Positions 3,702-38,578 of a DNA stretch of 64,000 nt are shown in pieces (the stretch's first letter is position 1; every line of letters starts with the position of its first letter). The translations under genes were made by a program, and so were the position numbers. Source of the stretch: Parcubacteria group bacterium (GTDB lineage: Bacteria; Patescibacteriota; Minisyncoccia; SW-4-49-11); the NCBI GenBank assembly GCA_943354045.1, contig CALRBF010000003.1, forward strand, positions 4,703 to 68,702, given 5' to 3'. The notes under the pieces were generated by a model. That model had not been told where the DNA came from. It saw nothing but the letters and a program-made list of their open reading frames with translations, and made no database searches.

Positions 3702-6700
3702 TCAATAGATAATAATTACTATCTTTTTGTCCTGATTTACAATAATTTTCTTAATGCGTGTTTTATCTGTGATAATGGTATTTACTTTATCTGATTCTAA
3801 AGCTTTTTGTTGAATAGCCTCATTGTCTAATTGTGCATTAACCGTAATAATATCTCGCATTTTTCCATTAATATGAATTTGATAATCTGCCTCTGTCTGA
3901 ATTAATTTTGATTCATCAAATTGTGGCCAAATAGATTTATGCACTGATTCTGTCTTACCTAATATTTCCCATAATTCTTCCGCAATATGTGGAGCAAATG
4001 GAGCTAAAAGAGTAATATATGTGGTGATATATTCTTTACCAATATCTTTATTAATATAGGTATTGAGATATTCCATCAAACTACTAATACAGGTATTATA
4101 TTTTTGGTTTTCAATATCTTCAGTAATTTTACGTATTAATATATGTGTATCATAATCTAATTTGATTGTATCTACGGCTTTCTCCAATGTTTGAGTTTGC
4201 ATATCAGTAATCCATTGATATACTCGCTTCAAAAATCGACTACATCCAATAAGACCGCTTGTATCCCAAGCAATTGCCTCATCATAAGGTCCCATAAACA
4301 TTTCATAAATTCTCAAAGAATCGGCTCCGAATGATTCTACCATTTCAACTGGATCCACGGTATTACCCTTAGATTTGGACATCTTAATACCCCCTTCAGC
4401 CAAAATCATTCCATGTGCAATACGCTTTTGATAAGGTTCTATTGTCGGTACCAATCCGATATCATATAAGAATTTATGCCAAAAGCGTGAATACAAAAGA
4501 TGCAAAGTTACATGCTCCATACCTCCATTATATAAGTCCACTGGTAGCCATTGCTCTAAAGCAGCTTGGTTTGCTAATTCTTGAGTATTATGAGCATCAG
4601 CATATCTAAGATAATACCAAGAACTTCCTGCCCAATTAGGCATAGTATCTGTTTCTCTGATACCCTCCACCCATTTATCATCGGGCTTAGTCTCGCTACG
4701 AGGAAGTGTTTTACCTGTTTCAATATGATACCAAACTTGAACCCAATCTTTTGCAAGTGCTAATGGCCCCTCACCTTGTCCCTCTGGAATATATGATTCT
4801 ACTTCTGGTAATTCGAGCGGTAATTCTGTTGGAGCCAAGGGAACCGCATATTCCGTATTATTATTTTTTTGTCGAGTAATGGGATTTGCTGGTAGAAACT
4901 TAACAATTTCACCTGATATTTGTCCATAAGACTGCTCATTAATCCACACAATAGGAAATGGCTCTCCCCAATAGCGCTGACGTGAGAATACCCAATCACG
5001 AAGCTTATATTGGATTTTCTGATGACCTAGATTCTTAAATTCTAATTCTTGTGTTAGCTTTTGTTTAGCTTCTAATGTTGATAATCCGTTATATAAATCT
5101 GAGTTCTCTAAAATATTATCCTCTGTAATAACATTGATAATTGCTAAATTATATTTCTCAGCAAATTCTCTATCTCTCTCATCATGAGCGGGTACCGCCA
5201 TCACAGCTCCCGTTCCATAATTCATTAATACATAATCTGCAGTCCAAATAGGAATTTGTTCCCCTGTTAATGGATGTACAGCATAGGCTCCTGTGAATAC
5301 TCCCGTTTTTTCTTTTTCTTGCTGACGATCTAAATCACTTTTTGATTTTGTTTGCTTTTGATAAGTTTGTATTGCTTCTTTATATTCTGATGTGACAATA
5401 GTATCTAAAATTGGATGTTCTGGAGCTAATACCAAAAAGATAACACCAAATAAGGTGTCTATTCTGGTGGTAAAGACTTTTATATTTTTTTTCGGAAATA
5501 TATTCTTTATATCTTCAAATCTTTTTAAAACCTGTTGCTCAGGCAATAAATCAAGGAGAGGCTGTAATCCCATATGTCCCCACCCACAACCAATTAATTT
5601 GTTTTTATCACATAAATTTTCTAATTCATAAATATCGGCTTGTGAATCAGTAAAATAATAAATGTCTTTTTCAGAAACACCCCAATCATTACAGATTATT
5701 TCAATTTTTTCTTCTTTTGAATAATGATCTTCATATGTTAAAACATGTGTAGGATTTACTCCTAATTTTTTAATTTCTTCTATCATTGGAGTAATATATG
5801 CATGCGAACCTGAGGATACAATTGCTATTTTTGTATTTTGTAATTTTACTATTTCATCTATAAATCCATTAAAAATTTTAGGTTCTAATTTTGCAAGAAT
5901 TTCTCCAAACTTTAATGTCCATGCATCAATTCTTTTAATTTCAGAATCTTCAGCACCACGAGCATGTGATGGTTTTTTTGATAAATAATTAAAGTTCTTT
6001 TTAAGAGCTTCAGTTTCATCTATCTGACTTATTTCCATTATTGCTTGTATTGTTTCTTTTTCCGTATCTCCAAGAACTCCATCAAAGTCAAAAATAATAT
6101 ATTTTTCTGTTTGATGTTCTAATTTAAAATCAATCTCACTGCCCTCACTGCGGCCAATCCAATTTCGCTGTTGAGTTTTGATAACAGGCAAATAATCGAC
6201 AATATCTAAATCTTTATCCAATCTATCTGCATATTTGGTAATAGCCAACATCCATTGTGTTAATGACACCCTCTCACAGGGATGCCCCCCGCGCTCTGAC
6301 TTTCCATCAATAACTTCTTCATTAGCAAGAACCGTCTTTAATTCATCACACCACCAAACCTTAGTAGTATCTTGATAAGCAAGTCCAGCTTTATACATTT
6401 GTAGCCATATCCATTGAGTCCAGCGATAATATTGTGGATCAGTAGTATTAATTTCACGACTCCAATCAAAAGATAGTCCTAATAATGCTAATTGTTTTTT
6501 GAAAGTATTAATATTATTTTCTGTTGCAATAATAGGAGATATATTATTTTGAATAGCATAATTTTCTGTTGGTAGACCAAAAGCATCCCAACCTATTGGG
6601 TATAATACATTTTGCCCCTGCATACGATACATTCTTGCCTTTATATCCTGAGCCACATAACTACGAATATGCCCCACATGTAGTCCAGCTCCTGATGGAA

Positions 6701-6821
6701 AAGGAAATTCCACCAAAATATATTTACTTTCTTTACCTGAAGAATTATTAGCCGTATAATCTACAAAGCCTTCAGCCCAGCGCTGTATCCATTTTTGTTC
6801 AATAGTTCTGTGATTATACAT
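3702..6821 (-). CDS. leuS: Leucyl-tRNA synthetase carrying an inserted HAD-like domain
   Basis: 1039 aa. HIGH motif (HVGH), KMSKS motif (KMSKSKGN), editing-domain signatures (TTRIDTLFG; GTGAVMAVPAHDERD) and a bacterial LeuRS C-terminal domain. About 180 aa longer than typical bacterial LeuRS because of the insertion described separately. Confidence 0.92.
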   Translation of the reverse strand: MYNHRTIEQKWIQRWAEGFVDYTANNSSGKESKYILVEFPFPSGAGLHVGHIRSYVAQDIKARMYRMQGQNVLYPIGWDAFGLPTENYAIQNNISPIIATENNINTFKKQLALLGLSFDWSREINTTDPQYYRWTQWIWLQMYKAGLAYQDTTKVWWCDELKTVLANEEVIDGKSERGGHPCERVSLTQWMLAITKYADRLDKDLDIVDYLPVIKTQQRNWIGRSEGSEIDFKLEHQTEKYIIFDFDGVLGDTEKETIQAIMEISQIDETEALKKNFNYLSKKPSHARGAEDSEIKRIDAWTLKFGEILAKLEPKIFNGFIDEIVKLQNTKIAIVSSGSHAYITPMIEEIKKLGVNPTHVLTYEDHYSKEEKIEIICNDWGVSEKDIYYFTDSQADIYELENLCDKNKLIGCGWGHMGLQPLLDLLPEQQVLKRFEDIKNIFPKKNIKVFTTRIDTLFGVIFLVLAPEHPILDTIVTSEYKEAIQTYQKQTKSKSDLDRQQEKEKTGVFTGAYAVHPLTGEQIPIWTADYVLMNYGTGAVMAVPAHDERDREFAEKYNLAIINVITEDNILENSDLYNGLSTLEAKQKLTQELEFKNLGHQKIQYKLRDWVFSRQRYWGEPFPIVWINEQSYGQISGEIVKFLPANPITRQKNNNTEYAVPLAPTELPLELPEVESYIPEGQGEGPLALAKDWVQVWYHIETGKTLPRSETKPDDKWVEGIRETDTMPNWAGSSWYYLRYADAHNTQELANQAALEQWLPVDLYNGGMEHVTLHLLYSRFWHKFLYDIGLVPTIEPYQKRIAHGMILAEGGIKMSKSKGNTVDPVEMVESFGADSLRIYEMFMGPYDEAIAWDTSGLIGCSRFLKRVYQWITDMQTQTLEKAVDTIKLDYDTHILIRKITEDIENQKYNTCISSLMEYLNTYINKDIGKEYITTYITLLAPFAPHIAEELWEILGKTESVHKSIWPQFDESKLIQTEADYQIHINGKMRDIITVNAQLDNEAIQQKALESDKVNTIITDKTRIKKIIVNQDKKIVIIIY
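5487..6110 (-). other. In-frame HAD-superfamily (phosphatase/beta-phosphoglucomutase-like) domain inserted in LeuRS between the catalytic core and the CP1 editing domain (aa ~238-445)
   Basis: Four ordered HAD motifs: motif I FDFDGVLGDT (DxDGV), motif II IAIVSSGS, a Lys-containing KEEKIEII segment, motif IV FTDSQAD. The flanks align with E. coli LeuRS (RNWIGRSEG.EI.F ... TTRPDT). Confidence 0.6.
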
Positions 6822-8315: not shown

Positions 8316-9389
8316 TTATTCTTCAATTGAGCTAGTATCAAGACTAGGAGCTTCTTCAGTTACCTCAGAAATATCTTCTTTAGCTAACACATCCGTATAT
8401 AGTTTTTCTAATGTTTCTGGATTATCTCTTAATTCTTTACGGGCTGATTCTAATCCTTGTCCAAGAGTATTTCCTTCCAAATCCTGAATATAAGTACCTT
8501 TTTTCTTTAATACCCCTACTTTGAGAGCTAAATTAATTAAATCCGTTTCCAAAGAAACACCTTCATTATACATAATATCAAATTCAGCCACCTTAAATGG
8601 AGCTGCTACTTTATTTTTTACAATTTTAGCTTTAGTTCTTGCACCAATAACCTCTTCTCCTTTTTTAATTTGAGCAATACGCTTAATTTCAATTCGAACT
8701 GAAGCATAAAACTTCAAAGCCTTTCCCCCCGGAGTTTCAACTGGACTACCATACCCCATCATACCAATTTTCATACGAGTTTGATTGGTAAATAAAATCG
8801 TGGTATTAGCTTTGGCGGAAATAGCAGTTAATTTACGTAATGCCTGTGACATAAGACGAGCCTGAATAGCCACATGAGAATCTCCCATATCACCTTCAAT
8901 TTCTGCCTTTGGTACAATAGCAGCAACTGAATCTAAGACAATAATATCTACATTACCTGATTGCACTAAAGCTTCTACTATAGATAAAGCTTCTTCTCCT
9001 GTATTAGGCTGCGAAATAAGCAAATCATCGGTATTTACTTTAAGTTTTTTTGCATATTCTGGATCAAGAGCATGCTCAGTATCAATAAATGCAGCCACGC
9101 CTCCTTCTTTTTGTGCATTCGCAATAACCTGAAGACAAATAGTTGTTTTTCCACTCGATTCAGGGCCATATATTTCAACAATTCTTCCTTGCGGGATTCC
9201 GCCAATTCCAAGTGCTCGGTCTAGCGAAATAGATCCAGTTGAATAGGCATGAATATCTACCTTTTTTACCTCACCTAGTTTCATCATGGATTCATCACCA
9301 AATTTACTTTTGATATCATCTAATACCGATTGTATTTTATCTTGTTTACTTGCTATCTTATCAATTACTTTGGATTTAGTCTTTGCCAT
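8316..9389 (-). CDS. recA: Recombinase RecA
   Basis: 357 aa. Walker A (GPESSGKTT) and RecA L1/L2 loop regions, RecA-wide conservation. Confidence 0.95.
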
Positions 9390-16725: not shown

Positions 16726-17840
16726 AGTGTATCTACTTTTTTAATCACTTCAAGTGTTTCTTTGGCACATCTTTGCCAAGAAAATTGTTTAACTCGTTTT
16801 AAACCTTTTTGCCGCATTTCTTGTCTTAATTTTGAATTAGTACATACAGTATCTAATACTTTTACCATATCGTCAATATTATGAGGGTCAAAGGAAAGAC
16901 TTGCATCCCCTCCCACCTCTACAAGACTTGGAGTATTAGAGACCAGAGTAGGGACGCCGCAAGCCATAGCTTCTAGTATAGGTAAGCCAAATCCTTCATA
17001 AAAACTTGGTAATATGAATATATTAGCACCCCATAATAATGGACTTAATTCCGCATCTTCAAATCGCCCGGTAAAAATAATATCCCCGCTATAATCATCT
17101 CCTATATCCTTCATAACTTCTTCTACCATCCAAGCTTTTGCCCCTGCAATAACAAGTTGATATTCATGGGATGTATTGTGCCGTAACTTCTGATAGGCTT
17201 TGATTAATCCCTGAATATTTTTGCGGGGCTGCACATTACCAATATACAGTATATAAGGTTTTGTAATACCATACTTCACCTTAACTTCATCTACCATATG
17301 CTGCTCTCCATCTTTTATTAACCGAAATCTATCTGTATCCACCCCATGATACACAACGGTAATACGATTAGGGTTAATATGATAAAATTTAATAATATCT
17401 TGTTTTGTGGCTTCAGTAATTGCAATTAGATGATTTGCTTTAGTAATTGCTTCTCTAACATATAATTTATGTAAGAAGGCATCCCTAGCGGGAAATGTTT
17501 CTGGATATAAAAGAAACGCTAAATCATGAATAGTAACAACAGATTTTTGTTTACGTGGCTTTAAGAATGGAAGCATTTGAATGGGCATAAACAAAATATC
17601 TGGTTTATCACGCCGCAATAAAAAGGGGAATACTCTTTGTGTCCACATAAAAGGAGCCTGATTCACTTTATGTTCAAAATTAGGAGCTTCTACTCTTTTC
17701 CCATTGGGTTTATTATAATAAAACATATATTGATTTTCTGTATCAATATCCCGAAGACCTCGAAATAAATTAAGCATATAGGTTTGATTCCCATCTTCTC
17801 TTTCTTGACATAAATGTGAGGCATGTACTGCAATTTTCAT
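16722..17840 (-). CDS. Glycosyltransferase family 4 (GT-B, group 1)
   Basis: 372 aa. C-terminal EX7E-region signature GFGLPILEAMACGVPTLVS. Confidence 0.8.
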   Translation of the reverse strand: MKIAVHASHLCQEREDGNQTYMLNLFRGLRDIDTENQYMFYYNKPNGKRVEAPNFEHKVNQAPFMWTQRVFPFLLRRDKPDILFMPIQMLPFLKPRKQKSVVTIHDLAFLLYPETFPARDAFLHKLYVREAITKANHLIAITEATKQDIIKFYHINPNRITVVYHGVDTDRFRLIKDGEQHMVDEVKVKYGITKPYILYIGNVQPRKNIQGLIKAYQKLRHNTSHEYQLVIAGAKAWMVEEVMKDIGDDYSGDIIFTGRFEDAELSPLLWGANIFILPSFYEGFGLPILEAMACGVPTLVSNTPSLVEVGGDASLSFDPHNIDDMVKVLDTVCTNSKLRQEMRQKGLKRVKQFSWQRCAKETLEVIKKVDTL

Positions 17841-18907
17841 GAATTCTTTGTATTATTTTCAAGAGCTTGTATTCCGGGTAATTGCCCTTTTTGAGCTATA
17901 TACTCAAGTATAGCTCCACCCCCAGTTGAGATAAAATCTATTTTTGATTCTTGATGTAAATTATAAATTTCATCTACCGTTTCTCCCCCACCAAGTACGG
18001 AATAACTCGATTCATTCTGAGCAATAGCTTCCGCTATATATTGAGTTCCCTCATCATAGGGTTTTTCCTCAAAATAACCCAAAGGACCATTCCAAACAAT
18101 AGTTGCGGCTTTATGAATATATTCCCCAAACAATGCTCTTGTTTTTGGGCCAATATCATATTTTTCTGCCCCTACAAAATCAATGGGTAATATAATTTTT
18201 TCACTTTGCGCCTGACCATATTCATCAATATATTCATTAGCAATTTTACCTCCAACCAATACATAGTCAAATATTTCTTCTAATACCGCTATTACTGGTA
18301 ATTTGGTAGATATTTTAGCTCCTCCAATAATTGCTATTGCGGGTTTGTCGGGACTCATTAATATATGGGTCAATACTTCAATTTCTTGAGCTAATTGAAG
18401 ACCTGCAAATGATGGTAAATATTCCGTAATAGCGGATACCGAAGCATGTTCTCGATGAGATACTGAGAAAGCATCATTAACATATATATCTCCTAATTGT
18501 GCCAAAGAAAAAGCAAATTCTTTATCATTTGATTCTTCCCTGGCATCAAAGCGAATATTCTCCAAAAACACTATCTCCCCATCTTGAAGATTTGCAATAC
18601 TATCCGTACTGATTTCATTTATTGGTTTATCGATAAATGTTACTGGAAATTCCCCCAATTCTCCTAATACTTGCGCAATATATTTCAAAGATAATCCCTC
18701 AATTCCTGATTCTTGAGGATTTCCCAGATGCGCAATTAATATAATTTTAGTTTCTTTTTCTCGAAAATATTGAATGGTCGCTAAAGCTTTTTTAATACGA
18801 AAAGTATCCTGAGGATATCCTTCAGCATTAACAGGTTCATTAACATCAATTCGTATTAAAACGTTTTTTCCTTTAAGAGAATAAGGAATATCTGGAATAT
18901 ATTTCAT
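17837..18907 (-). CDS. pgk: Phosphoglycerate kinase (compact)
   Basis: 356 aa. N-terminal substrate-binding motif (LIRIDVNEPV), hinge and C-terminal nucleotide-binding region (NGPLGYFE). Confidence 0.85.
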   Translation of the reverse strand: MKYIPDIPYSLKGKNVLIRIDVNEPVNAEGYPQDTFRIKKALATIQYFREKETKIILIAHLGNPQESGIEGLSLKYIAQVLGELGEFPVTFIDKPINEISTDSIANLQDGEIVFLENIRFDAREESNDKEFAFSLAQLGDIYVNDAFSVSHREHASVSAITEYLPSFAGLQLAQEIEVLTHILMSPDKPAIAIIGGAKISTKLPVIAVLEEIFDYVLVGGKIANEYIDEYGQAQSEKIILPIDFVGAEKYDIGPKTRALFGEYIHKAATIVWNGPLGYFEEKPYDEGTQYIAEAIAQNESSYSVLGGGETVDEIYNLHQESKIDFISTGGGAILEYIAQKGQLPGIQALENNTKNS

Positions 18908-18998
18908 ATATTATTAGTATATCATATTCAATAATTATTGCCCATATAGTTTAGACAGGCTCAAAAGTATATGTTATACTAAATTATATATATATGCC

Positions 18999-21989
18999 AT
19001 GGCTTCAATAAATAAACAATCAAATCGTCAAAGTTTTCGAGAAAAACTCCAGACTAATACAACTGCGGGATCAAATTTAATATTAATTCGAAAGAAAGAA
19101 GAGGAGCTTGCCACACAAAGAAAGGCAAACTCTCTTGGAATTGCCTATATTAATCTTAAATTTATTCCTATTAATCCTGATGCTCTTAAAATATTAACAC
19201 AAGAACAAGCCAAGAAGGCTGGAATGATTATATTTCAGCGCTCAGGAATTCATCTCAAAATTGCTATTGCAGACATTAATAATCCCCTTACCAAAACAAT
19301 TCTTCAACAATTTTATCAAAAAGAATATCAGATAGAATTATATTTGGTATCAAAATATAGTCTCGAGAAAGGATATGCTTCTTATGATTTTCTTCAAGAT
19401 AGAGGGCAAATTGTAAAAGATAGACTACTTATTCCTGAGCATATGATAAAAGATGCTCAGAGTGATATTGTGAAACTTGAAGATTTTGCTGACAAAATTA
19501 ATTCTGTAGAAATTTCAGAATTAATTCAAATGATTTGTGCGGGAGCCATATCTTCTTTTGCTAGTGATATACATATCGAACCAAAAGCATCTCTTACTCG
19601 CCTACGCTATCGTATTGATGGAGTTTTACAGGATATTTTAAATTTTGATTCTAATTTATATAAATCTCTCATATCACGTATCAAAAATCTTGCGTCTTTG
19701 GTACTCAATGTTAAAAGCACCTCACAAGATGGAAGATTTAGTATTGTAATTATTGATAAAGATGGTGTTAATAAACAAACTATTGATGTAAGAGTTTCTA
19801 TACTTCCCAGCAAAACAGGTGAAATTATTGTAATGAGATTATTGAATACTGAAATCCATAATTTGGATATTCATTCATTTGGGATTAGACCTTCTTTTTT
19901 AGATATTATTATAAGAAATCTTGAAAAATCTCAAGGAATGATTATGTTATCAGGACCAACAGGATCAGGAAAAACTACAAGCCTTTATTCTTTCCTTAAT
20001 TATATCAATAAAAGTGAAACGAATATTATTACTCTTGAAGATCCAATTGAATATCGATTACCAAATATTAATCAAACTCAAGTTGATACAAAAAAAGGCT
20101 ATACGTTTGCTAATGGCTTAAAGGCAATAGTGAGACAAGATCCAGATGTGATTATGATTGGAGAAATTAGAGATAATGATACTGCCAATATTGCGATTAA
20201 TGCCTCTATTACAGGACATCTCGTATTCTCCACTATTCACACCAATGATTCTGTAGGTATTGTGACCAGATTACAAGAATTTGATGTAGCCCCTCCTCTC
20301 ATCATATCTTCTATGAATTTATTTATTGCTCAAAGATTATTAAGGCGATTATGTGAATGTAAAGAAGAATATATTCCTTCAGAAGAGGAAATAACAAGTA
20401 TTAATCATGCTCTTGCTATTATTTCACCTAAATCCAATATCACAATACCTAAAGAAGTAACCAAATTATATAGAGCTAAGGGATGTCCCAAATGTTATGG
20501 GCTTGGATATAAAGGACGACTTGCTATTTATGAATTATTTGAAGCTCGCGATAATATTAAAGAGTTAATTAGTGATAATACTCCTGAGTTTAAAATATTT
20601 CGTAAAGCTATAGAAAATGGAATGGTAACCTTATTTCAAGATGGTATTCTTCATGCTATTGATGGGGAAACTTCATTTGAAGAAGTAGTGACTGTAGCTG
20701 GAGATACCAATTATATTGAAGAATTATATGAATCAACTCTCACATCAGCCCTATCTCGCGGAATTCATATAAAAGCGAATAGTAATCCTCCTCAAATTAG
20801 TCAATTATCTGAATCTATGTCAATTAATGATCAGTTAACTGCTATCACTACAGCCGCTCTCTCAAAAAGAGCTACCGATATTCACCTTGAGCCTGATGAA
20901 GGGAATTTAATTATACGATTTCGTATTGATGGAGTACTCTATGAAGAAGCCCGTATTCCAAAATCTCTTTATCCTCAAATTCTAACTCAAATCAAAATAT
21001 TCTCAGGATTAGCTCTTGATATCAGTAATACCATTCAGGAGGGAAGATTCACTATCTTTGCTGAAAAGAATGTTGATGTGAGGGTTTCTATTATTCCGGG
21101 AGGATATGGACAAACTATTGTACTTCGTATACTAAGATCAGATATAGCAAAACTTGGTCTCAAAGATCTTGGAATGGATGAGTATAATATTGAACTTCTC
21201 AAAGCTCAACTCAAAGCTACTACTGGACTTATATTGGTAACAGGTCCTACTAGCGCTGGAAAATCTACAACCCTGTATGCAACTCTTAATACCCTCAATC
21301 AACCTGGAGTAAAAATCATTACCATTGAAGATCCAATTGAATATAAATTGTCAGGAATTCTCCAAACGAGTATTAATGAAGAAACCGGATATAATTTCCC
21401 CAATGCTATCAGAGCTTTACTTAGACAAAACCCTAATATTGTTCTTATTGGAGAAATTAGGGACAATGAGACCGCCAAAGTAGCCATGCAAACAGCTGCA
21501 ACTGGACATCTTTTGCTATCTACTCTCCATACCAATGATGCTGCTTCTGCAATTTTGAGATTATATGATTTGGGTATTGGTCTTTCTGAAATTGCTGCTT
21601 TTGTAAATGTGACTATTGCGCAGCGAATTATTCGCAAACTTGACCCCAATACTGCTACTACTATCACATTATCTCCTGAACAAAAGGATATTATTCGATC
21701 AAAATTACCAGAACATTATCATAATCTTATTCCTGACACCATATTACAAGCTAATTCAAGCCCTGATCATCCTGATGGATATCTTGGTATTATGGCTATA
21801 TTTGAAGTGCTTGTTATTAGCCCAACTATGAAAGAAATTATTATTAGTCAAGCATCCACTGCCCGTATTAAAGATTTAGCTATTGAAGAGGGAATGACAA
21901 CCTTGGAAGTTTCTGGTATTCTAAAAGTATTAGATCATACCACCGATTTTGCTGAAATCGAAAGAGTATTAGGTGTCACAATATTATAA
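18999..21989 (+). CDS. Tandem-fused double GspE/PilB-type secretion/type IV pilus assembly ATPase
   Basis: 996 aa. Two complete ATPase modules. Walker A motifs GPTGSGKTT and GPTSAGKST. Asp boxes IMIGEIRD and VLIGEIRD. His boxes STIHTNDS and STLHTNDA. Each module has its own N1E-like domain (ASDIHIEP / ATDIHLEP). Only the first carries a tetracysteine zinc motif (CxC...CxxC). A GSPII_E N-terminal domain sits at the start. Confidence 0.85.
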   Translation: MASINKQSNRQSFREKLQTNTTAGSNLILIRKKEEELATQRKANSLGIAYINLKFIPINPDALKILTQEQAKKAGMIIFQRSGIHLKIAIADINNPLTKTILQQFYQKEYQIELYLVSKYSLEKGYASYDFLQDRGQIVKDRLLIPEHMIKDAQSDIVKLEDFADKINSVEISELIQMICAGAISSFASDIHIEPKASLTRLRYRIDGVLQDILNFDSNLYKSLISRIKNLASLVLNVKSTSQDGRFSIVIIDKDGVNKQTIDVRVSILPSKTGEIIVMRLLNTEIHNLDIHSFGIRPSFLDIIIRNLEKSQGMIMLSGPTGSGKTTSLYSFLNYINKSETNIITLEDPIEYRLPNINQTQVDTKKGYTFANGLKAIVRQDPDVIMIGEIRDNDTANIAINASITGHLVFSTIHTNDSVGIVTRLQEFDVAPPLIISSMNLFIAQRLLRRLCECKEEYIPSEEEITSINHALAIISPKSNITIPKEVTKLYRAKGCPKCYGLGYKGRLAIYELFEARDNIKELISDNTPEFKIFRKAIENGMVTLFQDGILHAIDGETSFEEVVTVAGDTNYIEELYESTLTSALSRGIHIKANSNPPQISQLSESMSINDQLTAITTAALSKRATDIHLEPDEGNLIIRFRIDGVLYEEARIPKSLYPQILTQIKIFSGLALDISNTIQEGRFTIFAEKNVDVRVSIIPGGYGQTIVLRILRSDIAKLGLKDLGMDEYNIELLKAQLKATTGLILVTGPTSAGKSTTLYATLNTLNQPGVKIITIEDPIEYKLSGILQTSINEETGYNFPNAIRALLRQNPNIVLIGEIRDNETAKVAMQTAATGHLLLSTLHTNDAASAILRLYDLGIGLSEIAAFVNVTIAQRIIRKLDPNTATTITLSPEQKDIIRSKLPEHYHNLIPDTILQANSSPDHPDGYLGIMAIFEVLVISPTMKEIIISQASTARIKDLAIEEGMTTLEVSGILKVLDHTTDFAEIERVLGVTIL

Positions 21990-21991: not shown

Positions 21992-22426
21992 ATGAGTATA
22001 CTTTCTCATTCCACTATACAAACCCAAGAAATCGCCCAAACTCTTGCACGAGAAGTGTTGGAAGGGTTAAAACCTCGCCTTATATTATTAGATGGCGAAC
22101 TCGGAGGAGGAAAAACAACATTTAGTCAAGGATTCCTAAAATCTCTTGGTATTACTCAAATAGTCAATAGCCCTACCTTTGTGATTATGAAACCCTATAC
22201 TATTCCAAATTCTGAATATACGGTATATCATTTTGATTTATATCGCCTAGAGCAAGAATGGGAAGCATTAGAACTTGGTATTAATGATATTATACAAAAT
22301 CCAAAATCTATACTTCTTATTGAATGGGCTAATAAAACTCCTCGTCTCTGGGAAAATATTCCTCATATACAAATTACTTTTAATGTAATAAGCCCAGAAG
22401 AAAGATCTATTACTATTGAATTCTAA
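21992..22426 (+). CDS. tsaE: tRNA threonylcarbamoyladenosine biosynthesis ATPase TsaE
   Basis: 144 aa. P-loop LDGELGGGKTTFSQGF typical of YjeE/TsaE. Confidence 0.8.
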   Translation: MSILSHSTIQTQEIAQTLAREVLEGLKPRLILLDGELGGGKTTFSQGFLKSLGITQIVNSPTFVIMKPYTIPNSEYTVYHFDLYRLEQEWEALELGINDIIQNPKSILLIEWANKTPRLWENIPHIQITFNVISPEERSITIEF

Positions 22427-28500: not shown

Positions 28501-28575
28501 GCCAATGTAGCTTAGTTCTGGTAGAGCAATGCATTCGTAACGCATAGGTCGTGGGTTCGATCCCCACCATTGGCT
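28501..28575 (+). tRNA. tRNA-Thr (anticodon CGT); CCA is encoded immediately 3' (28576..28578)
   Basis: Manual fold. Acceptor stem GCCAATG/CATTGGC, 7 bp. D-arm GCTT/AGAGC with GG in the loop. Anticodon arm with loop TTCGTAA (anticodon CGT, one A-C mismatch at the stem end). 5-nt variable loop. T-arm GTGGG-TTCGATC-CCCAC. Discriminator T. Confidence 0.75.
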
Positions 28576-28597
28576 CCATTATTTATATGAAAAAATT

Positions 28598-30936: not shown

Positions 30937-32973
30937 ATGGGAGTTAAAGCGGCTAAATTAATTCAAATCACTGTTCCAAATAATACTCAATTAGAATTAT
31001 TAGCCTATATTCAAAAGCATCAGGTTGGAGAAATTATAGAAAGAGTAGAAAGAACTCCTCTAACTAAAAAATATTTGCATAAACAGGAGGATTTATTAGA
31101 GAATTTAGATATTATCAATAAAGCTTTTGATGTTTATAAAACATATAATCAGCAGAAAAAATCTATTTTAACTAGTCTTATAGATAATCGATTTAGTATT
31201 ACTGAACCTATATTTGAGCATTATGATAAGAATCAAGATCTTATCATTGCCAAAGCCAAAGAAATTGTTGAAAAGGCTGAATTAAAAGATGATTTAACTA
31301 CTCGCCAAGAAATTCTACAAGATATTATTGCTAAATCAGAACCTCTCAAAGATATTGAGCTTAACATTTTTAAGCCCTATTCTTATATTGCTTTTATCCC
31401 CTTCTTGATTGATGAGTCTCGAGCACATTATCTGACAGATCAATTAGAGCATAGTCTCTCTCCTGTAGTTTTAGAATCTGTCAAAAAAGTTGGTACTGAT
31501 TATGTATATATTCTAGCCGTCCCCAAAAATCAGGCTAAAATTGCCCTGGATATAATTCAGAATCAAGCTACCCTGATTCAATTCTCAGCAGAAGTGAAAG
31601 GATCTTTTTATGATGTTTATCATAATAGTAAACAAGAGCTCAATGCCAATACTAAGAAAATTAATACATTAAATCGAGAGTTAAAAAAATCTCCCGTTAA
31701 AATGAAAGACTTAGCTATTTTAGTTGATGTATTAAACTCTCAATTAAATTTAATCTCTTATTTACACTCTTTTAATCCTGAGTCGGAGACTACTTCCTCA
31801 ATACAATTATGGGTAGATGCGGAAAAATTCAACTCAACCAAACAACCTATTTTAGGTATTTCAGAGGATATTACAATTGTAGAATTACCTTCTGATGCTG
31901 AGAATACTCCGATTATATTAAAAAATTTACCGATTATTAGACATTTTGAGACTGTGACCAAAATTATGGGCTATCCGCAAGCTGGTAAAATTGACCCGAC
32001 TTTGTCTATTGCTATATTCTTTACCTTTATGTTTGGATTAGCTTTATCTGAGGCTGGATATGCTTTAATCTTGATTGTTTTGACTGGGCTTGGTTTATTA
32101 AATCCTAGATTAAAATCAGGAATTCGAGATATCTTTGCGGTAGTATTTATTGCTTCTATCTCCACTTTGATTATAGGAGCTCTCTTTGGTAGTTGGTTTG
32201 GAATTACTCCAGATGCAGTTGACTATGCTACTGCCTCTCCTCATATGAAATTCTTGATTAGTATTGGACTGATCCCTTTCTTACAACAATTACAAATTAT
32301 CAACCCTATGGACAGTGTAATTGCCTTGATGGGATTCACTATTGTATTAGGTATTATTCATCTTTTATTTGGTTTGGTTCTCAATATTGTACAGGCTTTC
32401 AATCAAAAATCATTCTGGGATGCTAGCCTAGATTCTATTCTTTGGGCTTTGGCTTTAATCTTTGGAATATTCTTATTAGTGATTAACTTTGGATTATTAG
32501 GAGATGGTTTCAAACTTCTTATTGATCCTCTACTTTACTCCTATATTGCTTATGTTTTTGTGATGACATATCTACTAGGGCGAGAAATGAAGTCTATTTT
32601 TACTAAATTTGGTAAAGGAGCTTATGATGTTTTCTTTGGAGTTGTAGGATATTTGTCAGATATACTATCATACACTAGATTAGTAGCTCTGGGTCTTGCA
32701 ACCGGTATTATTGCTGGTGTAGTAGGAACCTTAGCTAATTTAGCTGGTGGTGGTTTGGTAGAAAAAGGGGGTGCCTGGCTCATTATTGGTTATATTATTA
32801 TGACTGTCATCTTTATTGCTGGAAATATATTTAATATTGCTTTGAATGTACTTGGTACTTATATTAATGTAGGTAGATTACATTTTGTAGAATTCTTTAG
32901 TAAATTCTTCCAATCCGGGGGGAAACCTTTACAAGTTGTCACAAGATCTCAAGAGTACAGTATTATTGAATAA
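30937..32973 (+). CDS. atpI: V/A-type ATPase subunit I (a-subunit, membrane stator)
   Basis: 678 aa. Soluble N-terminal half and polytopic C-terminal half with the conserved Arg-containing helix (SYTRLVALGLATG). Confidence 0.8.
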   Translation: MGVKAAKLIQITVPNNTQLELLAYIQKHQVGEIIERVERTPLTKKYLHKQEDLLENLDIINKAFDVYKTYNQQKKSILTSLIDNRFSITEPIFEHYDKNQDLIIAKAKEIVEKAELKDDLTTRQEILQDIIAKSEPLKDIELNIFKPYSYIAFIPFLIDESRAHYLTDQLEHSLSPVVLESVKKVGTDYVYILAVPKNQAKIALDIIQNQATLIQFSAEVKGSFYDVYHNSKQELNANTKKINTLNRELKKSPVKMKDLAILVDVLNSQLNLISYLHSFNPESETTSSIQLWVDAEKFNSTKQPILGISEDITIVELPSDAENTPIILKNLPIIRHFETVTKIMGYPQAGKIDPTLSIAIFFTFMFGLALSEAGYALILIVLTGLGLLNPRLKSGIRDIFAVVFIASISTLIIGALFGSWFGITPDAVDYATASPHMKFLISIGLIPFLQQLQIINPMDSVIALMGFTIVLGIIHLLFGLVLNIVQAFNQKSFWDASLDSILWALALIFGIFLLVINFGLLGDGFKLLIDPLLYSYIAYVFVMTYLLGREMKSIFTKFGKGAYDVFFGVVGYLSDILSYTRLVALGLATGIIAGVVGTLANLAGGGLVEKGGAWLIIGYIIMTVIFIAGNIFNIALNVLGTYINVGRLHFVEFFSKFFQSGGKPLQVVTRSQEYSIIE

Positions 32974-33078
32974 GACTATTATCTCTTTCATTGTATTTTT
33001 GATTAAGTTCAAGAGTATAGTGACAGAGATGGCAGTAATATCAATCTCTGTCACTTATTAAGAGTTAAAGTTAAATAT

Positions 33079-33558
33079 ATGGAAATATTAGGTGTGAGTT
33101 TAGCGGTACTTGGAGCTGCTTTAGCCGCTGGTTTAGCTGGGGCGGGTTCATCAATTGGAGTAGCTACTGCTGGAAAAACGGGAGCGGGGCTTGTTGCTGA
33201 AGATGACTCTCAATTTGGAAATATACTTTTATTATCAGCCCTACCAGGATCACAGGCTATTTATGGTCTTTTGGCAGCTGTTTTGATTTTGCAAAATACT
33301 GGAGTCTTATCTGGTGAATTTGCAAATTTAAGCTGGCAAAATGGTATGATTCTAGCATTTGCTGGGATTCCAGTGGGACTTACTTGTTTAGCTTCAGGAA
33401 AATATCAAGGGGATGTAATTGCTAGTGGAGTGCAGTTGATTGCTAGAGATAAATCCAAAATTGGACAAGTAATTATCTTAGCTGCTTTAGTAGAGACTTT
33501 TGCTGTATTCGGATTACTGGTTTCTATCTTAATTATTAATGGAGTATCAGTAGGATAA
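33079..33558 (+). CDS. atpK: V/A-type ATPase proteolipid subunit K (c-ring)
   Basis: 159 aa. Duplicated hairpin proteolipid rich in Gly/Ala, with a conserved acidic residue in the distal helix. Confidence 0.8.
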   Translation: MEILGVSLAVLGAALAAGLAGAGSSIGVATAGKTGAGLVAEDDSQFGNILLLSALPGSQAIYGLLAAVLILQNTGVLSGEFANLSWQNGMILAFAGIPVGLTCLASGKYQGDVIASGVQLIARDKSKIGQVIILAALVETFAVFGLLVSILIINGVSVG

Positions 33559-33560
33559 AT

Positions 33561-34097
33561 ATGACTTTAGCAGATTTAATACAATCTCAGAGCAATAAGG
33601 ATATTGAGAAATTAGAAGCTCAATATAAAGCTGAATTCAAAGAGACCAAAAATACTTGGGACTCCGCCTTAGCTGAGGTCAAAAAATTACATACTGAAAA
33701 AATTGAAGAGGCTGTCCAAACTCAAATTAATTTTCAAAAATTCCAAAATAGCAAAACTACTAAATTTACTTTTGGTTATGCCATACAATCTCAACTAACC
33801 CAAATTTATATTGAATCTTTATCAGAAATCCTAGCTTCTAACTTTGTAAAAACCTTAATTCAAGATACTCTTAAGGATATCCCTCAAACTGCAACTTTAA
33901 CTATAACTGGGCAATATGCCAAAGATTTACAAACTATTATCAGTAGTCTTGGATATATATCTAATTCAACTAAAGATAATTCTAATTTAGGTAAAATTAG
34001 CGCTTCATTGGATCATATTCGTCTCGAAATTACTGTTGAGGACATTCTTAATACTGTCAAGCAAGCAACATTAGCCTCCGTAATCAATGAACTATGA
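33561..34097 (+). CDS. V/A-type ATPase subunit E (peripheral stalk)
   Basis: 178 aa helical protein, assigned from its position in the conserved operon order. Confidence 0.55.
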   Translation: MTLADLIQSQSNKDIEKLEAQYKAEFKETKNTWDSALAEVKKLHTEKIEEAVQTQINFQKFQNSKTTKFTFGYAIQSQLTQIYIESLSEILASNFVKTLIQDTLKDIPQTATLTITGQYAKDLQTIISSLGYISNSTKDNSNLGKISASLDHIRLEITVEDILNTVKQATLASVINEL

Positions 34098-35035
34098 GTT
34101 TACAAATTCCTCTAATTGGTGTTGCTAGTAAATATGTCTCTCGATTAGGGCATTTACCCTCCTCTACCGAGGCCAAAAACCTACTCAATACAGATAATAT
34201 TGACGCTATTTTGATTATGATTAGAGATTCTTTTGGAATAGCAGATATTAGTCTAGATAATGTAATTGAGAAATTAAATAATTATTCTCCCACCCAAATT
34301 GAGGAAATTTTGTCCCTTTTACCAGATAATTCCGCTCCTTTTGTCTATTTAACTCTTGCTCAAGACTTTGAAAAATTAAAAACTCTAGCCCTAAGTAAAA
34401 CTATTTATGGCGAGGCTTTGGGAGATAAAGCTTTTGAGCAAATTTTAGCCGAGACTACCACTCATTTACATTATGCTTCTCAATTTAAGTCTAAATTATT
34501 GGCTAAAGAGGAAAAATTAATTCACTCTCATGATAGCTTTAGTCTAATTTCTTATTTAGAGGAAATATTTTTGACTTTACTTTTTGAAAATCTAAGTAAA
34601 AGCAGTGATATTATGCGAGACTTTGTCTTAGCAAAAATAGATAGCTATACCCTACTCAATGTCCTCACCAGAACCCAAAAAGGGCAGTCCAAAGAGCATA
34701 TTCTAAGGCATCTCTTACCAATTCAAGGTAGTCTCGCTATCAATGCAGTAAAGAGCTTTAGCTTTGGAGATATTCTAGGAGATATTGGGCAATATCTAAA
34801 TCTAGCTCCTGTAGATATCAATATCATCAATATTGAAAATACTTTAATTCAAAATGAAATCAAAACTCTACATAGAGCTCAATTTACTGGGATGTCTGGT
34901 GATAGAATTATTCAATATACCGAGAGATTACAATATTCGATTTCAAACTTTAAATTACTTATTTTGCAAAATTCCAAACAAATAGACTCCAAACAAGCTA
35001 AATTAAGATTTATAGATTATTCCAATATATGTTAG
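34094..35035 (+). CDS. V/A-type ATPase subunit C (d-subunit, central socket)
   Basis: 313 aa, all-helical. Assigned from operon position between E and F. Confidence 0.55.
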   Translation: MSLQIPLIGVASKYVSRLGHLPSSTEAKNLLNTDNIDAILIMIRDSFGIADISLDNVIEKLNNYSPTQIEEILSLLPDNSAPFVYLTLAQDFEKLKTLALSKTIYGEALGDKAFEQILAETTTHLHYASQFKSKLLAKEEKLIHSHDSFSLISYLEEIFLTLLFENLSKSSDIMRDFVLAKIDSYTLLNVLTRTQKGQSKEHILRHLLPIQGSLAINAVKSFSFGDILGDIGQYLNLAPVDINIINIENTLIQNEIKTLHRAQFTGMSGDRIIQYTERLQYSISNFKLLILQNSKQIDSKQAKLRFIDYSNIC

Positions 35036-35352
35036 ACTATAAAAAACCCGTTGTAATTGCTGAATCAGATATTATTCTTTTATTTCAATTATTTGGATTT
35101 GAGACTTTCAATAGTGAGAATATTTCATTAGATATTATCATTCAATCTATTGAGAAAGATATAGAGCAATATGCTATTCTCTTTATATCTTCCTCCATTA
35201 TACTTAATCCAAAACAACGAAAAATTATGAACTCATTTAATATCCCTATTTCAGAGCTCCCTATCAGCAGCGATAGCTCTTCTGTAGATGAGCTAAAACG
35301 GCTCACTGAGAAAGCTGTGGGAATGAGCCTCGACACATTATTCGCGTCTTGA
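35029..35352 (+). CDS. V/A-type ATPase subunit F
   Basis: 107 aa. Small alpha/beta protein sitting immediately upstream of the catalytic A subunit. Confidence 0.55.
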
Positions 35353-37181: not shown

Positions 37182-37190
37182 GATAATTAT

Positions 37191-38576
37191 ATGAAGAAAT
37201 GGTATAACACAATCAAAGAAATTGCCGGACCACTCGTAGTAGTGGAAAAGGTACCCGAAGTTGCATTTGAGGAAATTGTAGAAATTCGAGATGCAAAAGG
37301 AAATATTCGCCGAGGAAGAGTACTTGAGGCTGGTAAAGATACCGCCATTGTTCAACTATTTACCAATACTGAAGGACTTGATACCAAAACAGCTGAAATT
37401 GCATTTCTTGGAGAAACACTCAGATTTGGTGTTGCAGAATCAATGCTTGGAAGAGTATTCACCGGAGCTGGTGAGGTCAAAGATGGTGGACCCGAGATTA
37501 TTGCTGAAAAATATGTAGACATCAATGGCGCCCCTATCAATCCTGGACAAAGACAATTCCCTAGTGAATTTATTCAAACAGGAATTTCTACCATTGATGG
37601 ATTAAATGCTCTTGTACGAGGTCAAAAACTCCCTATATTTTCTGGAGCTGGACTACCTCATGCTGAACTTGCTGCCCAAATTGCAGAACAATCTCGTGTG
37701 GTTGAAGTAAAAAATGGTACTGATTTGGTAGAGTCAGATGAACCATTTGCTGTTATTTTTGCAGCTATGGGAGTTACTTTTGAAGAAGCACAATTCTTTA
37801 TCGATTCATTTGAAAAGACAGGAGCTATGGAGCGAGCCGCTCTCTTTATCAATACCGCCAGCGACCCTATCGTAGAGCGTATTACCCTACCAAGACTAGC
37901 ACTTACTCTGGGAGAATATCTTGCCTTTGAGAAAAATATGCATGTATTAGTTATATTAACCGATATGACCAATTATGCTGATGCCCTCCGTGAAGTATCG
38001 GCCTCCAGAAAAGAAATTCCTGGAAGAAGAGGATATCCAGGGTATCTCTATACCGATTTAGCGACTCTTTATGAAAGAGCGGGACTTATCAAGGGATCTA
38101 CTGGTTCATTGACGCAAATTCCTATACTCACTATGCCTGATGATGATAAACAACATCCAATCCCCGATCTTACAGGATATATCACAGAAGGGCAAATTAT
38201 GGTAAATAGAGAGCTTCATAATCAAGGGATTTATCCTCCAATTCAACCAATTGGATCTCTTTCTCGTATTGCAGTAAATAAAAAATATACCCGTGAAGAT
38301 TTATCTGCCGTCAAAGAGCAAATGGCCTCCTCATATGCCAAAGGAATGGAAATCAAAGAATTAGCCCTCATACTTGGTGAATCAGCCCTATCCGAGACAG
38401 ATAAAGCCTATATCCGATTTGCTGAGGCTTTTGAGACAAGATATATTACTCAGGGTCGCCGAGAGAACCGTTCTATATTAGATACGCTTGATTTATCTTG
38501 GGAATTATTATCCATTCTTCCTAAAAAAGAATTAAAGAAAATCAAGCCTGAATTTATTGAGAAATATTCCAAATAA
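37191..38576 (+). CDS. atpB: V/A-type ATPase regulatory subunit B
   Basis: 461 aa. Conserved B-subunit core with a degenerate P-loop. Confidence 0.9.
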
Positions 38577-38578
38577 AT

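What the first reader, a model, noticed from the sequence alone, without database searches (positions are those of the whole stretch)
18999..21989. Single 996-aa polypeptide comprising two complete GspE/PilB secretion ATPases
Both halves carry an N1E-like domain, Walker A (GPTGSGKTT / GPTSAGKST), Asp box and His box. Only the first half has the tetracysteine zinc motif. GspE/PilB proteins normally function as homohexamers of single-module chains. A covalently duplicated chain implies an obligate pseudo-heterohexamer (a trimer of tandem dimers) with possibly asymmetric roles. There are no pilM/N/O/C or pilin genes nearby: the flanks are pgk and tsaE.
Basis: seen in the sequence. Interest (0 to 1): 0.55.

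Follow-up and report, generated by a model that had tools for sequence, protein, structure and literature searches.

The report
Tandem double PilB-type pilus motor ATPase
One gene of an ultra-small (Patescibacteria) bacterium encodes two complete pilus-assembly motor ATPase units joined head to tail. The design is conserved across a whole bacterial class but apparently undescribed, and it could serve as a natural test of how these ring motors divide labour between subunits.

Summary
The 996-aa ORF at 18999-21989 (+) is real. It holds two full PilB/GspE-type ATPase modules (N2E+CTE; aa 171-566 and 609-992, 35-37% identical). They are joined by a conserved 42-aa segment containing a helix.

It is not an assembly artefact. 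More than 100 protein clusters (40-97% identity, ~1000 aa, full coverage) from independent JGI, ENA, NCBI and Logan assemblies share the architecture, and every named one is Patescibacteria (Minisyncoccia, Moranbacteria, Parcubacteria). dN/dS against the nearest relative is 0.04-0.09 in both modules and the linker.

The catalytic set is invariant in both modules in 109 homologues: Walker A Lys, Asp-box Glu, Walker B Glu, both His, and both Arg fingers.

The module-2 zinc tetracysteine is lost only in this window's clade; 87 of 109 relatives keep it.

Module-specific conserved residues cluster on the N2E surface that a published model assigns to platform-protein binding.

Best reading: three chains form a six-module ring driving type IV pilus assembly. 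Oligomeric state was not testable here. I found no description of the architecture in the literature. Verdict: new variant of a known kind, moderate interest.

The parts
18952..18980 (+). Promoter-like site (TAGACA-17-TATACT with TG) in the 91-bp divergent spacer between pgk and the ATPase gene
   Evidence: Consensus scan. Such matches were not enriched over shuffles (27 found vs 21 expected), so this is only a candidate.
18999..21989 (+). Whole gene: 996-aa tandem PilB/GspE-type ATPase, stop codon included
   Evidence: ORF. Two T2SSE domains. Full-length homologues.
19134..19394 (+). Single N1E / MshEN-type N-terminal domain (aa 46-132), preceded by a low-confidence N-terminal tail (aa 1-45)
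   Evidence: PF05157, 27.2 bits (cut-off 23.1), aa 46-122. AF2 shows a beta/alpha fold at aa 60-132 and pLDDT <50 for aa 1-21.
19509..19868 (+). N2E-1 (aa 171-290). Carries Arg fingers R265 and R280, the third arginine R246, and module-1-specific conserved R227, N237 and Q243.
   Evidence: Mapped to PilB of G. metallireducens from PMC5424180.
19869..20696 (+). CTE-1 (aa 291-566). Carries Walker A 319-327, Asp box E347/E351, Walker B G388-E389 and His box H407/H414.
   Evidence: Fold match to PilB 5TSG/5TSH with TM up to 0.93.
20352..20495 (+). Zinc-binding tetracysteine of module 1 (C452, C454, C496, C499)
   Evidence: Invariant in 109 of 109 homologues.
20697..20822 (+). Inter-module segment (aa 567-608). 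Contains a conserved helix at aa 571-586 (YIEELYESTLTSALSR; Y577 and L585 conserved in at least 90%).
   Evidence: Segment length is 42-53 aa across the family and the motif is conserved. Helix seen in AF2 models. dN/dS 0.087.
20823..21158 (+). N2E-2 (aa 609-720). Carries Arg fingers R695 and R710, invariant R683, and module-2-specific L662, G670 and G702. No N1E precedes it.
21159..21986 (+). CTE-2 (aa 721-996). Carries Walker A GPTSAGKST 749-757, Asp box E777/E781, Walker B G818-E819 and His box H837/H844.
   Evidence: Best PDB matches are PilB and GspE; no PilT chain scores at E <= 1e-30.
21642..21770 (+). Degenerate zinc site of module 2 (D882, T885, S921, H924 in place of four Cys)
   Evidence: these columns are Cys in 87-90 of 109 homologues; stepwise loss along the lineage, CCCC -> CSTC -> PC(T/N)C -> none.

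Best explanation
This is a genuine, conserved gene for a tandem-duplicated extension-type (PilB/GspE-clade) secretion ATPase of a Patescibacteria (class Minisyncoccia) bacterium. One chain carries one membrane-anchoring N1E domain and two complete, catalytically competent motor cores (N2E+CTE), joined by a conserved 42-53-residue segment containing a helix.

Most likely three chains assemble into one six-module ring, a pseudo-hexamer in which module 1 and module 2 alternate. That ring would power assembly of type IV pili (or competence-type pseudopili) through the platform protein PilC.

The platform protein is itself an internal duplication. It is modelled as a trimer presenting six alternating Cyto1/Cyto2 domains, each contacting one ATPase N2 domain. 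The fusion would therefore fix a 3:3 chain stoichiometry and let N2E-1 and N2E-2 specialise for the two platform domains.

Shown here: the gene, its architecture, its conservation, catalytic integrity of both modules, and asymmetric divergence between them. Inferred: ring stoichiometry, the PilC pairing and the pilus function.
For: Reality and conservation:
- Uninterrupted ORF.
- The best 120 database clusters are ~1000 aa with 95-100% coverage at 40-97% identity, apart from one 763-aa fragment. They come from JGI, ENA, NCBI and Logan.
- About 15 of the top 150 clusters at 50% identity have two modules.
- dN/dS against a 97%-identical relative is 0.063 for module 1, 0.040 for module 2 and 0.087 for the linker.

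Catalytic integrity:
- K325/K755, E347+E351/E777+E781, E389/E819, H407+H414/H837+H844 and R265+R280/R695+R710 are invariant or at least 99% conserved in 109 sequences.
- The ring-interface residues T405/T835 and R449/R879 are conserved. They correspond to T411 and R455 of PilB(Gm), PMC5424180.

Extension type:
- Each module scores about twice as high on the PilB and GspE models as on the PilT model.
- PDB sequence and fold hits are PilB, GspE and PilF.

Asymmetry:
- Only one N1E is present.
- The module-2 Zn site is lost in the window's clade, and module-1 R246 is lost in 65 of 109. No sequence has lost both.
- 6 of 12 module-specific conserved positions fall in the N2E alpha2 helix to beta4 stretch, about 7% of the module. 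The PulE6:PulF3 model gives the alpha2 helix and alpha2-beta4 loop as the platform-binding surface (PMC10790770).

Support from relatives:
- An unrelated bacterium encodes two soluble PilC-type domains plus two ATPase modules in one chain.
- PilC lies 5 kb from the fused gene in a Moranbacteria genome.
- A prepilin-type protein lies 9.8 kb from it in the 97%-identical relative.

Structure prediction:
- AF2 of CTE-1+linker+N2E-2 gives pLDDT 91.9 and pTM 0.72. This is compatible with these two domains forming a defined unit.
Against: - Oligomeric state was not tested. No multimer prediction, coordinates or PAE were available. Full-length pTM is only 0.53, and a pTM of 0.72 for the sub-construct has no control.
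- No PilC, PilM, PilT, PilD or pilin was found in the 64-kb window. The link to a pilus is therefore by homology and by relatives only.
- The gene is not in a pilus operon in any locus examined.
- Whether the genome also has a canonical single-module PilB is unknown.
- Zinc coordination is essential in EpsE (PMC5061722), so the zinc-less module 2 of this clade might be impaired despite its intact catalytic motifs.
- Assigning alpha2/beta4 to the PulE interface relies on secondary-structure order in my AF2 model, not on a superposition.
Confidence: 0.58

Rival explanations
1. Stacked double ring. Six chains assemble, with module 1 forming one hexameric tier and module 2 a second coaxial tier, as in the two-tier AAA+ machines ClpB, p97 and NSF. 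Only one tier touches the platform protein; the other regulates or adds force.
For: Both modules keep the full catalytic and ring-interface residue sets, so each could form its own hexamer. The 42-53-aa inter-module segment is long enough to connect two tiers. There is only one N1E per chain, as expected if only one tier is anchored.
Against: No stacked arrangement is known for PilT/VirB11-like ATPases in the solved structures recovered. In the second tier the N2E surface, which diverges in a module-specific way, would have no platform partner. The chain found in another bacterium with two PilC-type domains and two ATPase modules fits side-by-side pairing better.
Confidence: 0.17
2. Bifunctional motor. 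Module 1 is the extension unit. Module 2 lacks N1E and zinc, as retraction ATPases do, and acts as a built-in retraction or regulatory unit that replaces PilT.
For: Module 2 lacks N1E and, in this clade, the tetracysteine. That motif is present in assembly but not retraction ATPases (PMC5061722). No PilT gene is in the window. Single bifunctional motors exist, for example CpaF of Tad pili (PMC12019362 abstract).
Against: Module 2 scores 356-366 bits on the PilB and GspE models against 168 on PilT, whose cut-off is 319. Its PDB sequence hits at E <= 1e-30 are all PilB, GspE or PilF. 87 of 109 relatives keep the module-2 tetracysteine, so zinc loss is a late, clade-specific event. The zinc-subdomain-length insert is retained.
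Confidence: 0.1
3. Artefact: two adjacent pilB genes joined by a sequencing or assembly error, or a decaying duplicate.
For: None beyond the rarity of the architecture.
Against: The same continuous architecture occurs in more than 100 clusters from four independent data sources down to 40% identity. The junction carries a conserved motif. Strong purifying selection acts on both modules and the linker. Catalytic residues are invariant. The apparent module-2-only protein P0129 sits in the same 90% cluster as a 999-aa protein and comes from a 4.7-kb contig, so it is a fragment.
Confidence: 0.01
4. The protein works outside pilus biogenesis, for example in DNA uptake or processing or another translocation task. 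It would be an orphan ATPase that uses the PilB fold but not a PilC/pilin machine.
For: The gene is never in a pilus operon in the loci examined. In Moranbacteria-type genomes it is consistently followed by ruvB, with ruvA and ruvC nearby. recA lies 10 kb away in the window. Saccharibacteria link a pilus locus with recA/recX (PMC11623550).
Against: Synteny with ruvB is confined to one order-level group and is absent in the window, where the neighbours are pgk and tsaE. Competence pili are themselves type IV filaments, so this overlaps with the main model. N1E and the platform-facing N2E surface are conserved.
Confidence: 0.1

Closest known systems
PilB, type IVa pilus extension ATPase (G. metallireducens 5TSG/5TSH/6OLJ; M. 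xanthus 3JC8)
   Same: Each module has the N2D+CTD fold (TM up to 0.93, 41-42% identity). Each has Walker A, Asp box, Walker B Glu, His box, two Arg fingers and the inter-chain Arg. Module 1 also has the N1 domain and the tetracysteine.
   Different: PilB is a single-module chain of ~560-590 aa that forms a homohexamer. Here two motor cores share one chain and one N1 domain, and module 2 of this clade has no zinc site.
GspE/EpsE, type II secretion ATPase (V. cholerae 1P9R, 4KSR; V. vulnificus 4PHT)
   Same: It gives the highest NCBIfam score (TIGR02533) and the same domain set. Zinc coordination is essential in EpsE (PMC5061722).
   Different: Each half alone scores below the equivalog cut-off (436.7 and 366.5 against 630.25). 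As general knowledge, not tested here, Patescibacteria are not known to have an outer membrane or a T2SS. The tandem architecture is absent in GspE.
PilF of Thermus thermophilus (6F8L, 913 aa)
   Same: An unusually long PilB-clade ATPase produced by internal domain duplication. It is a sequence hit.
   Different: As I recall, PilF multiplies the N-terminal GSPII/N1-type domains and keeps a single ATPase core. In one search only its C-terminal part (aa 369-885) matches one module. Here the ATPase core itself is duplicated and N1 is single.
PilB plus TfpB of Acinetobacter baylyi (two extension motors; PMC8213720)
   Same: Two diverged PilB-clade paralogues are both needed for efficient extension and have distinct roles. 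This is a precedent for division of labour between extension ATPases.
   Different: They are separate genes and proteins. How they share the machine is unknown, and no covalent linkage exists.
Platform protein PilC/GspF (PulF trimer model; PMC10790770)
   Same: A partner protein built by internal duplication (two T2SSF repeats). It is modelled as a trimer whose six alternating Cyto domains each bind one ATPase N2 domain. The tandem ATPase would mirror this arrangement.
   Different: It is a membrane protein of a different fold. The pairing with the tandem ATPase is my inference and has not been observed.
Two-tier AAA+ machines (ClpB, p97, NSF) and KaiC
   Same: Two ATPase modules in one chain that form ring assemblies (general knowledge).
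   Different: They belong to different ATPase clades, and their modules stack in two tiers rather than alternating in one ring. This is relevant only to the rival model.

Membership tests
PilT/VirB11-like secretion ATPases (Pfam T2SSE, PF00437) | Significant match to the family profile over the N2D+CTD core | tested here: met
   Two stretches, E 4.2e-112 (aa 171-564) and E 4.6e-96 (aa 605-989). The cut-off is 24.9 bits.
PilT/VirB11-like secretion ATPases (Pfam T2SSE, PF00437) | Walker A Lys, Asp-box Glu, catalytic Walker B Glu, His-box His and two arginine fingers (the fully conserved residues listed in PMC5424180) | tested here: met
   Present in both modules and invariant or at least 99% conserved in 109 homologues. 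Mapped to PilB(Gm) by motif spacing.
PilB/GspE clade (extension / assembly ATPases) | Tetracysteine zinc-binding motif in the CTD | tested here: met
   Module 1 has C452, C454, C496 and C499, invariant in 109 of 109. Module 2 of this window does NOT have it (D882, T885, S921, H924), although 87 of 109 relatives do. The protein qualifies through module 1.
PilB/GspE clade (extension / assembly ATPases) | N-terminal N1E / GSPII-type domain that anchors the ATPase to PilM/GspL | tested here: met
   PF05157 at aa 46-122, 27.2 bits against a cut-off of 23.1. It occurs once per chain and module 2 has none.
PilB/GspE clade (extension / assembly ATPases) | Clade-specific arginine that makes the inter-chain contact in the hexamer (R455 of PilB Gm) | tested here: met
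   R449 is invariant and R879 is at least 90% conserved. The mapping is by spacing from the His box.
Type IV-A PilB equivalog (TIGR02538) / T2SS GspE equivalog (TIGR02533) | Score above the curated whole-protein cut-off (675.65 / 630.25 bits) | tested here: inconclusive
   The whole protein exceeds both cut-offs (777.5 and 791.5), but only because two modules add up. Each half alone is below them: 432.6/436.7 and 356.3/366.5. It cannot be assigned to PilB rather than GspE, and 'GspE/PulE family' is the safe name.
PilT/PilU retraction ATPases (TIGR01420), considered for module 2 | Score above the subfamily cut-off (319.1 bits) | tested here: not met
   Module 2 scores 168.1 bits and module 1 scores 166.5 bits. 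No PilT chain is among the PDB sequence hits at E <= 1e-30.
Type IV pilus system | Co-encoded platform protein PilC, PilM/N/O, prepilin peptidase and pilins | tested here: not met
   None was detected in the 64-kb window. In relatives, PilC lies 5 kb away and a prepilin-type protein lies 9.8 kb away. The rest of the genome is not available.
Hexameric ring assembly | Six ATPase cores per ring | not testable with these tools
   Only monomer AF2 without coordinates or PAE was available. pTM was 0.53 for the full length and 0.72 for the sub-construct.

The most novel reading that the evidence does not exclude
The tandem ATPase forms a three-chain, six-module ring that pairs chain-for-chain with a trimeric PilC. 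N2E-1 and N2E-2 would each be dedicated to one of the two PilC cytoplasmic domains, and the two modules would have non-equivalent catalytic roles, as hinted by zinc-site loss in module 2 or R246 loss in module 1, never both. It would then be a natural covalently linked heterodimeric pilus motor. It would fix the debated 6:3 ATPase:platform stoichiometry and force an alternating (C3-type) rather than purely C2 firing pattern.
Probability: 0.3. Interest if true: 0.7.

Novelty: new variant of a known kind. Interest (0 to 1): 0.55.

Why it matters
How hexameric pilus motors coordinate ATP turnover (C2 versus C3 conformations) is still debated, as is how six ATPase subunits engage a platform protein of uncertain stoichiometry (dimer, trimer or tetramer) (PMC5424180, PMC6858323, PMC10790770).

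A natural chain that links two non-identical motor cores gives a handle that otherwise has to be engineered. Each ring position can be mutated independently. The particle mass distinguishes ring models directly. Module-specific surface divergence points to the partner-binding face.

It also shows that Patescibacteria, whose episymbiotic lifestyle depends on type IV pili (PMC11623550, PMC9894109), have remodelled the core motor in one large class. Automated annotation simply labels these genes 'GspE/PulE family protein'.

Tried and rejected
- The GTDB genome scan was meant to map taxonomy and find single-module paralogues in the same genomes. Other long matches are separate pilB-pilT-pilB genes (L068) or pilB with a separate PilT-sized ORF downstream (L067).
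- The AlphaFold database search (afdb50) was not available.
- Model coordinates and PAE are not exposed, so the relative placement of the modules could not be measured. The pTM of a sub-construct is only a soft indicator.
- 'Independent duplications': in P0130, P0132 and P0135 the two modules of one protein are each other's nearest relatives (bootstrap 97-100). P0130 shares the ruvB synteny of the main family, so gene conversion between modules is equally possible. Only P0135, in a non-CPR context, is clearly a separate origin.
- The main-family module-2 clade has weak NJ bootstrap support (7-36%; modules 1 and 2 mix in 31 of 100 replicates), so I make no claim about the exact origin of module 2.
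- I first took R246 (the QDGR arginine) for a catalytic arginine finger. Spacing against PilB(Gm) shows it corresponds to R257, which forms a salt bridge only in the open ATP-analogue state. The true fingers, R271 and R286, correspond to R265 and R280 and are invariant.
- Six literature searches, plus term searches within a 2024 PilB review and a Saccharibacteria pilus paper, found no description of a tandem PilB/GspE. One further search failed on syntax.
- Rfam and tRNA scans found only tRNA-Thr at 28501-28578.
Full report
**Observation**

The ORF listing returns one uninterrupted ORF at 18999-21989 (+) of 996 aa.
- Pfam finds two T2SSE (PF00437) stretches. Scanned separately, aa 1-575 gives E 4.2e-112 (aa 171-564). 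Residues 576-996 give E 4.6e-96 (residues 30-414 of that piece).
- BLASTP of the two halves gives 35% identity over 405 columns (E 1e-83). The alignment starts at aa 169 of half 1, the beginning of N2E.
- The MshEN/N1E domain (PF05157) is found only at aa 46-122.
- All five cysteines lie in half 1, four of them as C452-x-C454 and C496-x-x-C499.
- The flanks are pgk (17837-18907, -) and tsaE (21992-22426, +, 2 bp after the stop).
- A promoter-like site lies at 18952-18980, and no terminator-like site separates the gene from tsaE.

The claim that both halves carry an N1E-like domain is wrong. The architecture is N1E - N2E - CTE - linker - N2E - CTE.

**Artefact or real gene**

A search of 5.8 billion proteins returned, among its best 120 clusters, almost only ~1000-aa proteins covering 95-100% of the query at 40-97% identity.
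- They come from JGI, ENA, NCBI and Logan assemblies.
- Where named, they are Patescibacteria, Parcubacteria, Moranbacteria or Minisyncoccia. In NCBI taxonomy the class Minisyncoccia contains Moranbacterales.

An exhaustive HMMER search with module 2 against 1.84 billion representatives gave 12,510 hits at E <= 1e-30. About 15 of the best 150 clusters at 50% identity are two-module proteins. Apparent single-module members of the module-2 group come from 2.6-4.7-kb contigs, and one sits in the same 90% cluster as a 999-aa protein. They are fragments.

Against the 97%-identical relative L001, dN/dS is 0.063 for module 1, 0.040 for module 2 and 0.087 for the linker. The junction carries a conserved motif, G-x3-[YF]-[IL]-x2-[IL]-Y-[ED]-x2-[LM]-x2-[AST]-L-[SG]-R. 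The segment is always 42-53 residues long. An assembly or frameshift artefact is excluded for practical purposes.

**Catalytic competence**

An alignment of 109 two-module proteins (A1) shows these residues invariant or at least 99% conserved in both modules:
- Walker A G-P-T-x-x-G-K (K325/K755)
- Asp box E-D-P-I-E (E347, E351 / E777, E781)
- Walker B G-E (E389/E819)
- His box (H407, H414 / H837, H844)

I used the residue numbers given for G. metallireducens PilB in PMC5424180 and the spacing of the motifs.
- The two fully conserved arginine fingers R271 and R286 correspond to R265 and R280 in module 1 and R695 and R710 in module 2. All four are invariant.
- The ring-contact residues T411 and R455 correspond to T405/T835 (invariant) and R449 (invariant)/R879 (at least 90%).

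**Which family**

- Each half scores about 360-440 bits on the GspE and PilB equivalog models and about 167 on the PilT model. All are below the respective cut-offs when a half is taken alone. The whole protein passes the PilB and GspE cut-offs only because two modules add up.
- PDB sequence hits for module 2 at E <= 1e-30 are all PilB, GspE or PilF.
- The AF2 model (pLDDT 84.9, pTM 0.53) matches PilB of Geobacter with target-normalised TM up to 0.93.

Both modules are extension-type. Module 2 is not a PilT.

**Asymmetry between the modules**

1. There is only one N1E per chain.
2. The module-2 tetracysteine is present in 87-90 of 109 relatives. It is lost stepwise along the lineage leading to the window: CCCC, then CSTC at 51% identity, then PC(T/N)C at 54-56%, then none at 60% or more. 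Zinc coordination is essential in EpsE, and the motif is typical of assembly rather than retraction ATPases (PMC5061722).
3. In module 1, R246 is replaced by His, Thr or another residue in 65 of 109 sequences. R246 corresponds to R257 of PilB(Gm), which bonds the Asp-box Glu only in the open AMP-PNP state. The module-2 equivalent R683 is invariant. No sequence has lost both the module-1 arginine and the module-2 cysteines.
4. Twelve positions are conserved at 90% or more in one module and below 50% in the other. Six of them lie between the N2E alpha2 helix and the start of beta4: R227, N237 and Q243 in module 1, and L662, G670 and R683 in module 2. That stretch is about 7% of a module (secondary structure).
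5. Module 2 has diverged more than module 1. Mean identity is 42% between module-2 copies against 49% between module-1 copies. Module 1 is also closer to single-module PilBs, at 45% against 41%.

**Mechanism**

[quoted passage not shown] A tandem chain turns every second such contact into an intra-chain one, so three chains suffice for a six-module ring.

A published AlphaFold-Multimer and cross-linking study models the platform protein PulF as a trimer with a ring of alternating Cyto1 and Cyto2 domains. Each Cyto domain binds one PulE N2D through the alpha2 helix and the alpha2-beta4 loop, giving E6:F3 (PMC10790770). The module-specific divergence found here falls on that same element. This fits N2E-1 and N2E-2 having specialised for the two platform domains, with a fixed 3:3 chain stoichiometry.

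Two side observations agree with this.
- P0135 comes from a non-CPR genome whose neighbours are sulfatases, an ECF sigma factor and BatA. It carries two soluble PilC-type T2SSF domains followed by two ATPase modules in one chain.
- AF2 of CTE-1 + linker + N2E-2 gives pLDDT 91.9 and pTM 0.72.

These steps are inference. Oligomeric state, PilC binding and pilus function were not tested.

**Context**

Pfam scans of the window's ORFs, plus motif and phmmer searches, found no PilC, PilM, PilT, PilD or prepilin signal in 64 kb. A few short ORFs remain unannotated.

In relatives the fused gene is also outside pilus operons.
- The window's clade has pgk on one side and tsaE on the other.
- Moranbacteria-type genomes have the fused gene followed by ruvB, with ruvA and ruvC nearby.
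- PilC lies 5 kb upstream in one of these genomes.
- In the 97%-identical relative, a 413-aa protein with a textbook prepilin N-terminus (KKG|FTLLEILLVIAAIG) and an FGE-sulfatase domain lies 9.8 kb upstream. The window has recA at that position.

The lineage therefore has type IV pilin-like substrates, but the link between this ATPase and a pilus rests on homology.

**Evolution**

An NJ tree of modules places main-family module-1 copies among single-module PilB representatives and groups module-2 copies together. Bootstrap support is weak.

In P0130, P0132 and P0135 the two modules of one protein are sisters (bootstrap 97-100; 55%, 73% and 44% identity). P0130 shares the ruvB synteny, so homogenisation by gene conversion is as likely as re-duplication. 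P0135 is an independent origin outside the CPR.

**Novelty**

Six full-text searches, plus term searches within a 2024 PilB review and a Saccharibacteria pilus paper, found no description of a tandem PilB/GspE. The proteins are in public databases under generic names such as 'GspE/PulE family protein'.

I rate this a new variant of a known kind. The fold, chemistry and probable role are those of PilB. The covalent two-core design, with one anchor domain and diverging modules, is what is new.

Interest is moderate (0.55). It is not a new mechanism class, but it is a natural tool for open questions on motor symmetry and ATPase:platform stoichiometry.

**Confidence**

| Claim | Confidence |
|---|---|
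| The gene and its architecture are real | ~0.98 |
| Both modules are active ATPases | ~0.75 |
| Single six-module ring of three chains | ~0.55-0.6 |
| Chain-for-chain pairing with PilC | ~0.3 |

Noticed in passing
L088:10001-13144 (protein P0135, NCBI GCA_964384625.1, contig CAYLNH010000035.1): A 1047-aa protein from a non-CPR genome (neighbours: sulfatases, ECF sigma factor, BatA/VWA). It carries two soluble PilC-type T2SSF domains (aa ~6-94 and ~103-201) followed by two T2SSE ATPase modules. Its first module has lost the Walker A lysine (GPTGSGTTT) and the second Asp-box Glu (EDPVQ). This is an independent origin of the tandem design, fused to platform-protein domains.
   Followed up: partly
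L002:13470-14459, L085:13450-14445, L086:13418-14428, L087:13639-14613: In Moranbacteria-type genomes the tandem ATPase gene is consistently followed by ruvB. ruvA and/or ruvC lie within 10 kb in L085 and L086. This could be plain conserved synteny or a hint of a DNA-uptake or recombination link.
   Followed up: partly
L001:1-205 (-) versus window 8316-9389 (-): The 97%-identical relative encodes a 413-aa protein with a classic prepilin N-terminus (MQRDKRVKKGFTLLEILLVIAAIG...) and an FGE-sulfatase domain, 9.8 kb upstream of the ATPase. The window has recA at that position, so synteny breaks there. No prepilin motif occurs anywhere in the window.
   Followed up: partly
P0130 (L087:10001-12985) and P0132: The two ATPase modules of the same protein are each other's closest relatives (55% and 73% identity; bootstrap 98-100), although P0130 shares the main family's ruvB synteny. 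This suggests gene conversion between the modules or repeated re-duplication.
   Followed up: partly
window 3702-6821 (-): A 1038-aa leucyl-tRNA synthetase with a HAD-like hydrolase domain hit (PF13419, E 1.2e-9) at aa 241-396, ahead of the editing domain. The LeuRS in L087 is 931 aa and has no recorded HAD hit.
   Followed up: no
window 30937-39193 (+): A V/A-type ATPase operon: subunit I-like, c, F-like, A, B and D, with two unannotated ORFs (33561-35035) in between. No F-type synthase genes are in the window.
   Followed up: no
window 39208-44963: A Bro-N domain protein (40342-41190, -) is flanked by ORFs with no Pfam match (39208-40287, 42099-42428, 43376-44963). GC dips to 0.28 at 42-44 kb. 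This may be a remnant of a mobile element or phage.
   Followed up: no
window 50530-51823 and 54171-56420 (-): Runs of small to medium ORFs with no Pfam match or only weak ones (260, 156, 113, 101 and 175 aa), next to a DUF6973 protein (55383-56420). None has a prepilin-type N-terminus.
   Followed up: partly
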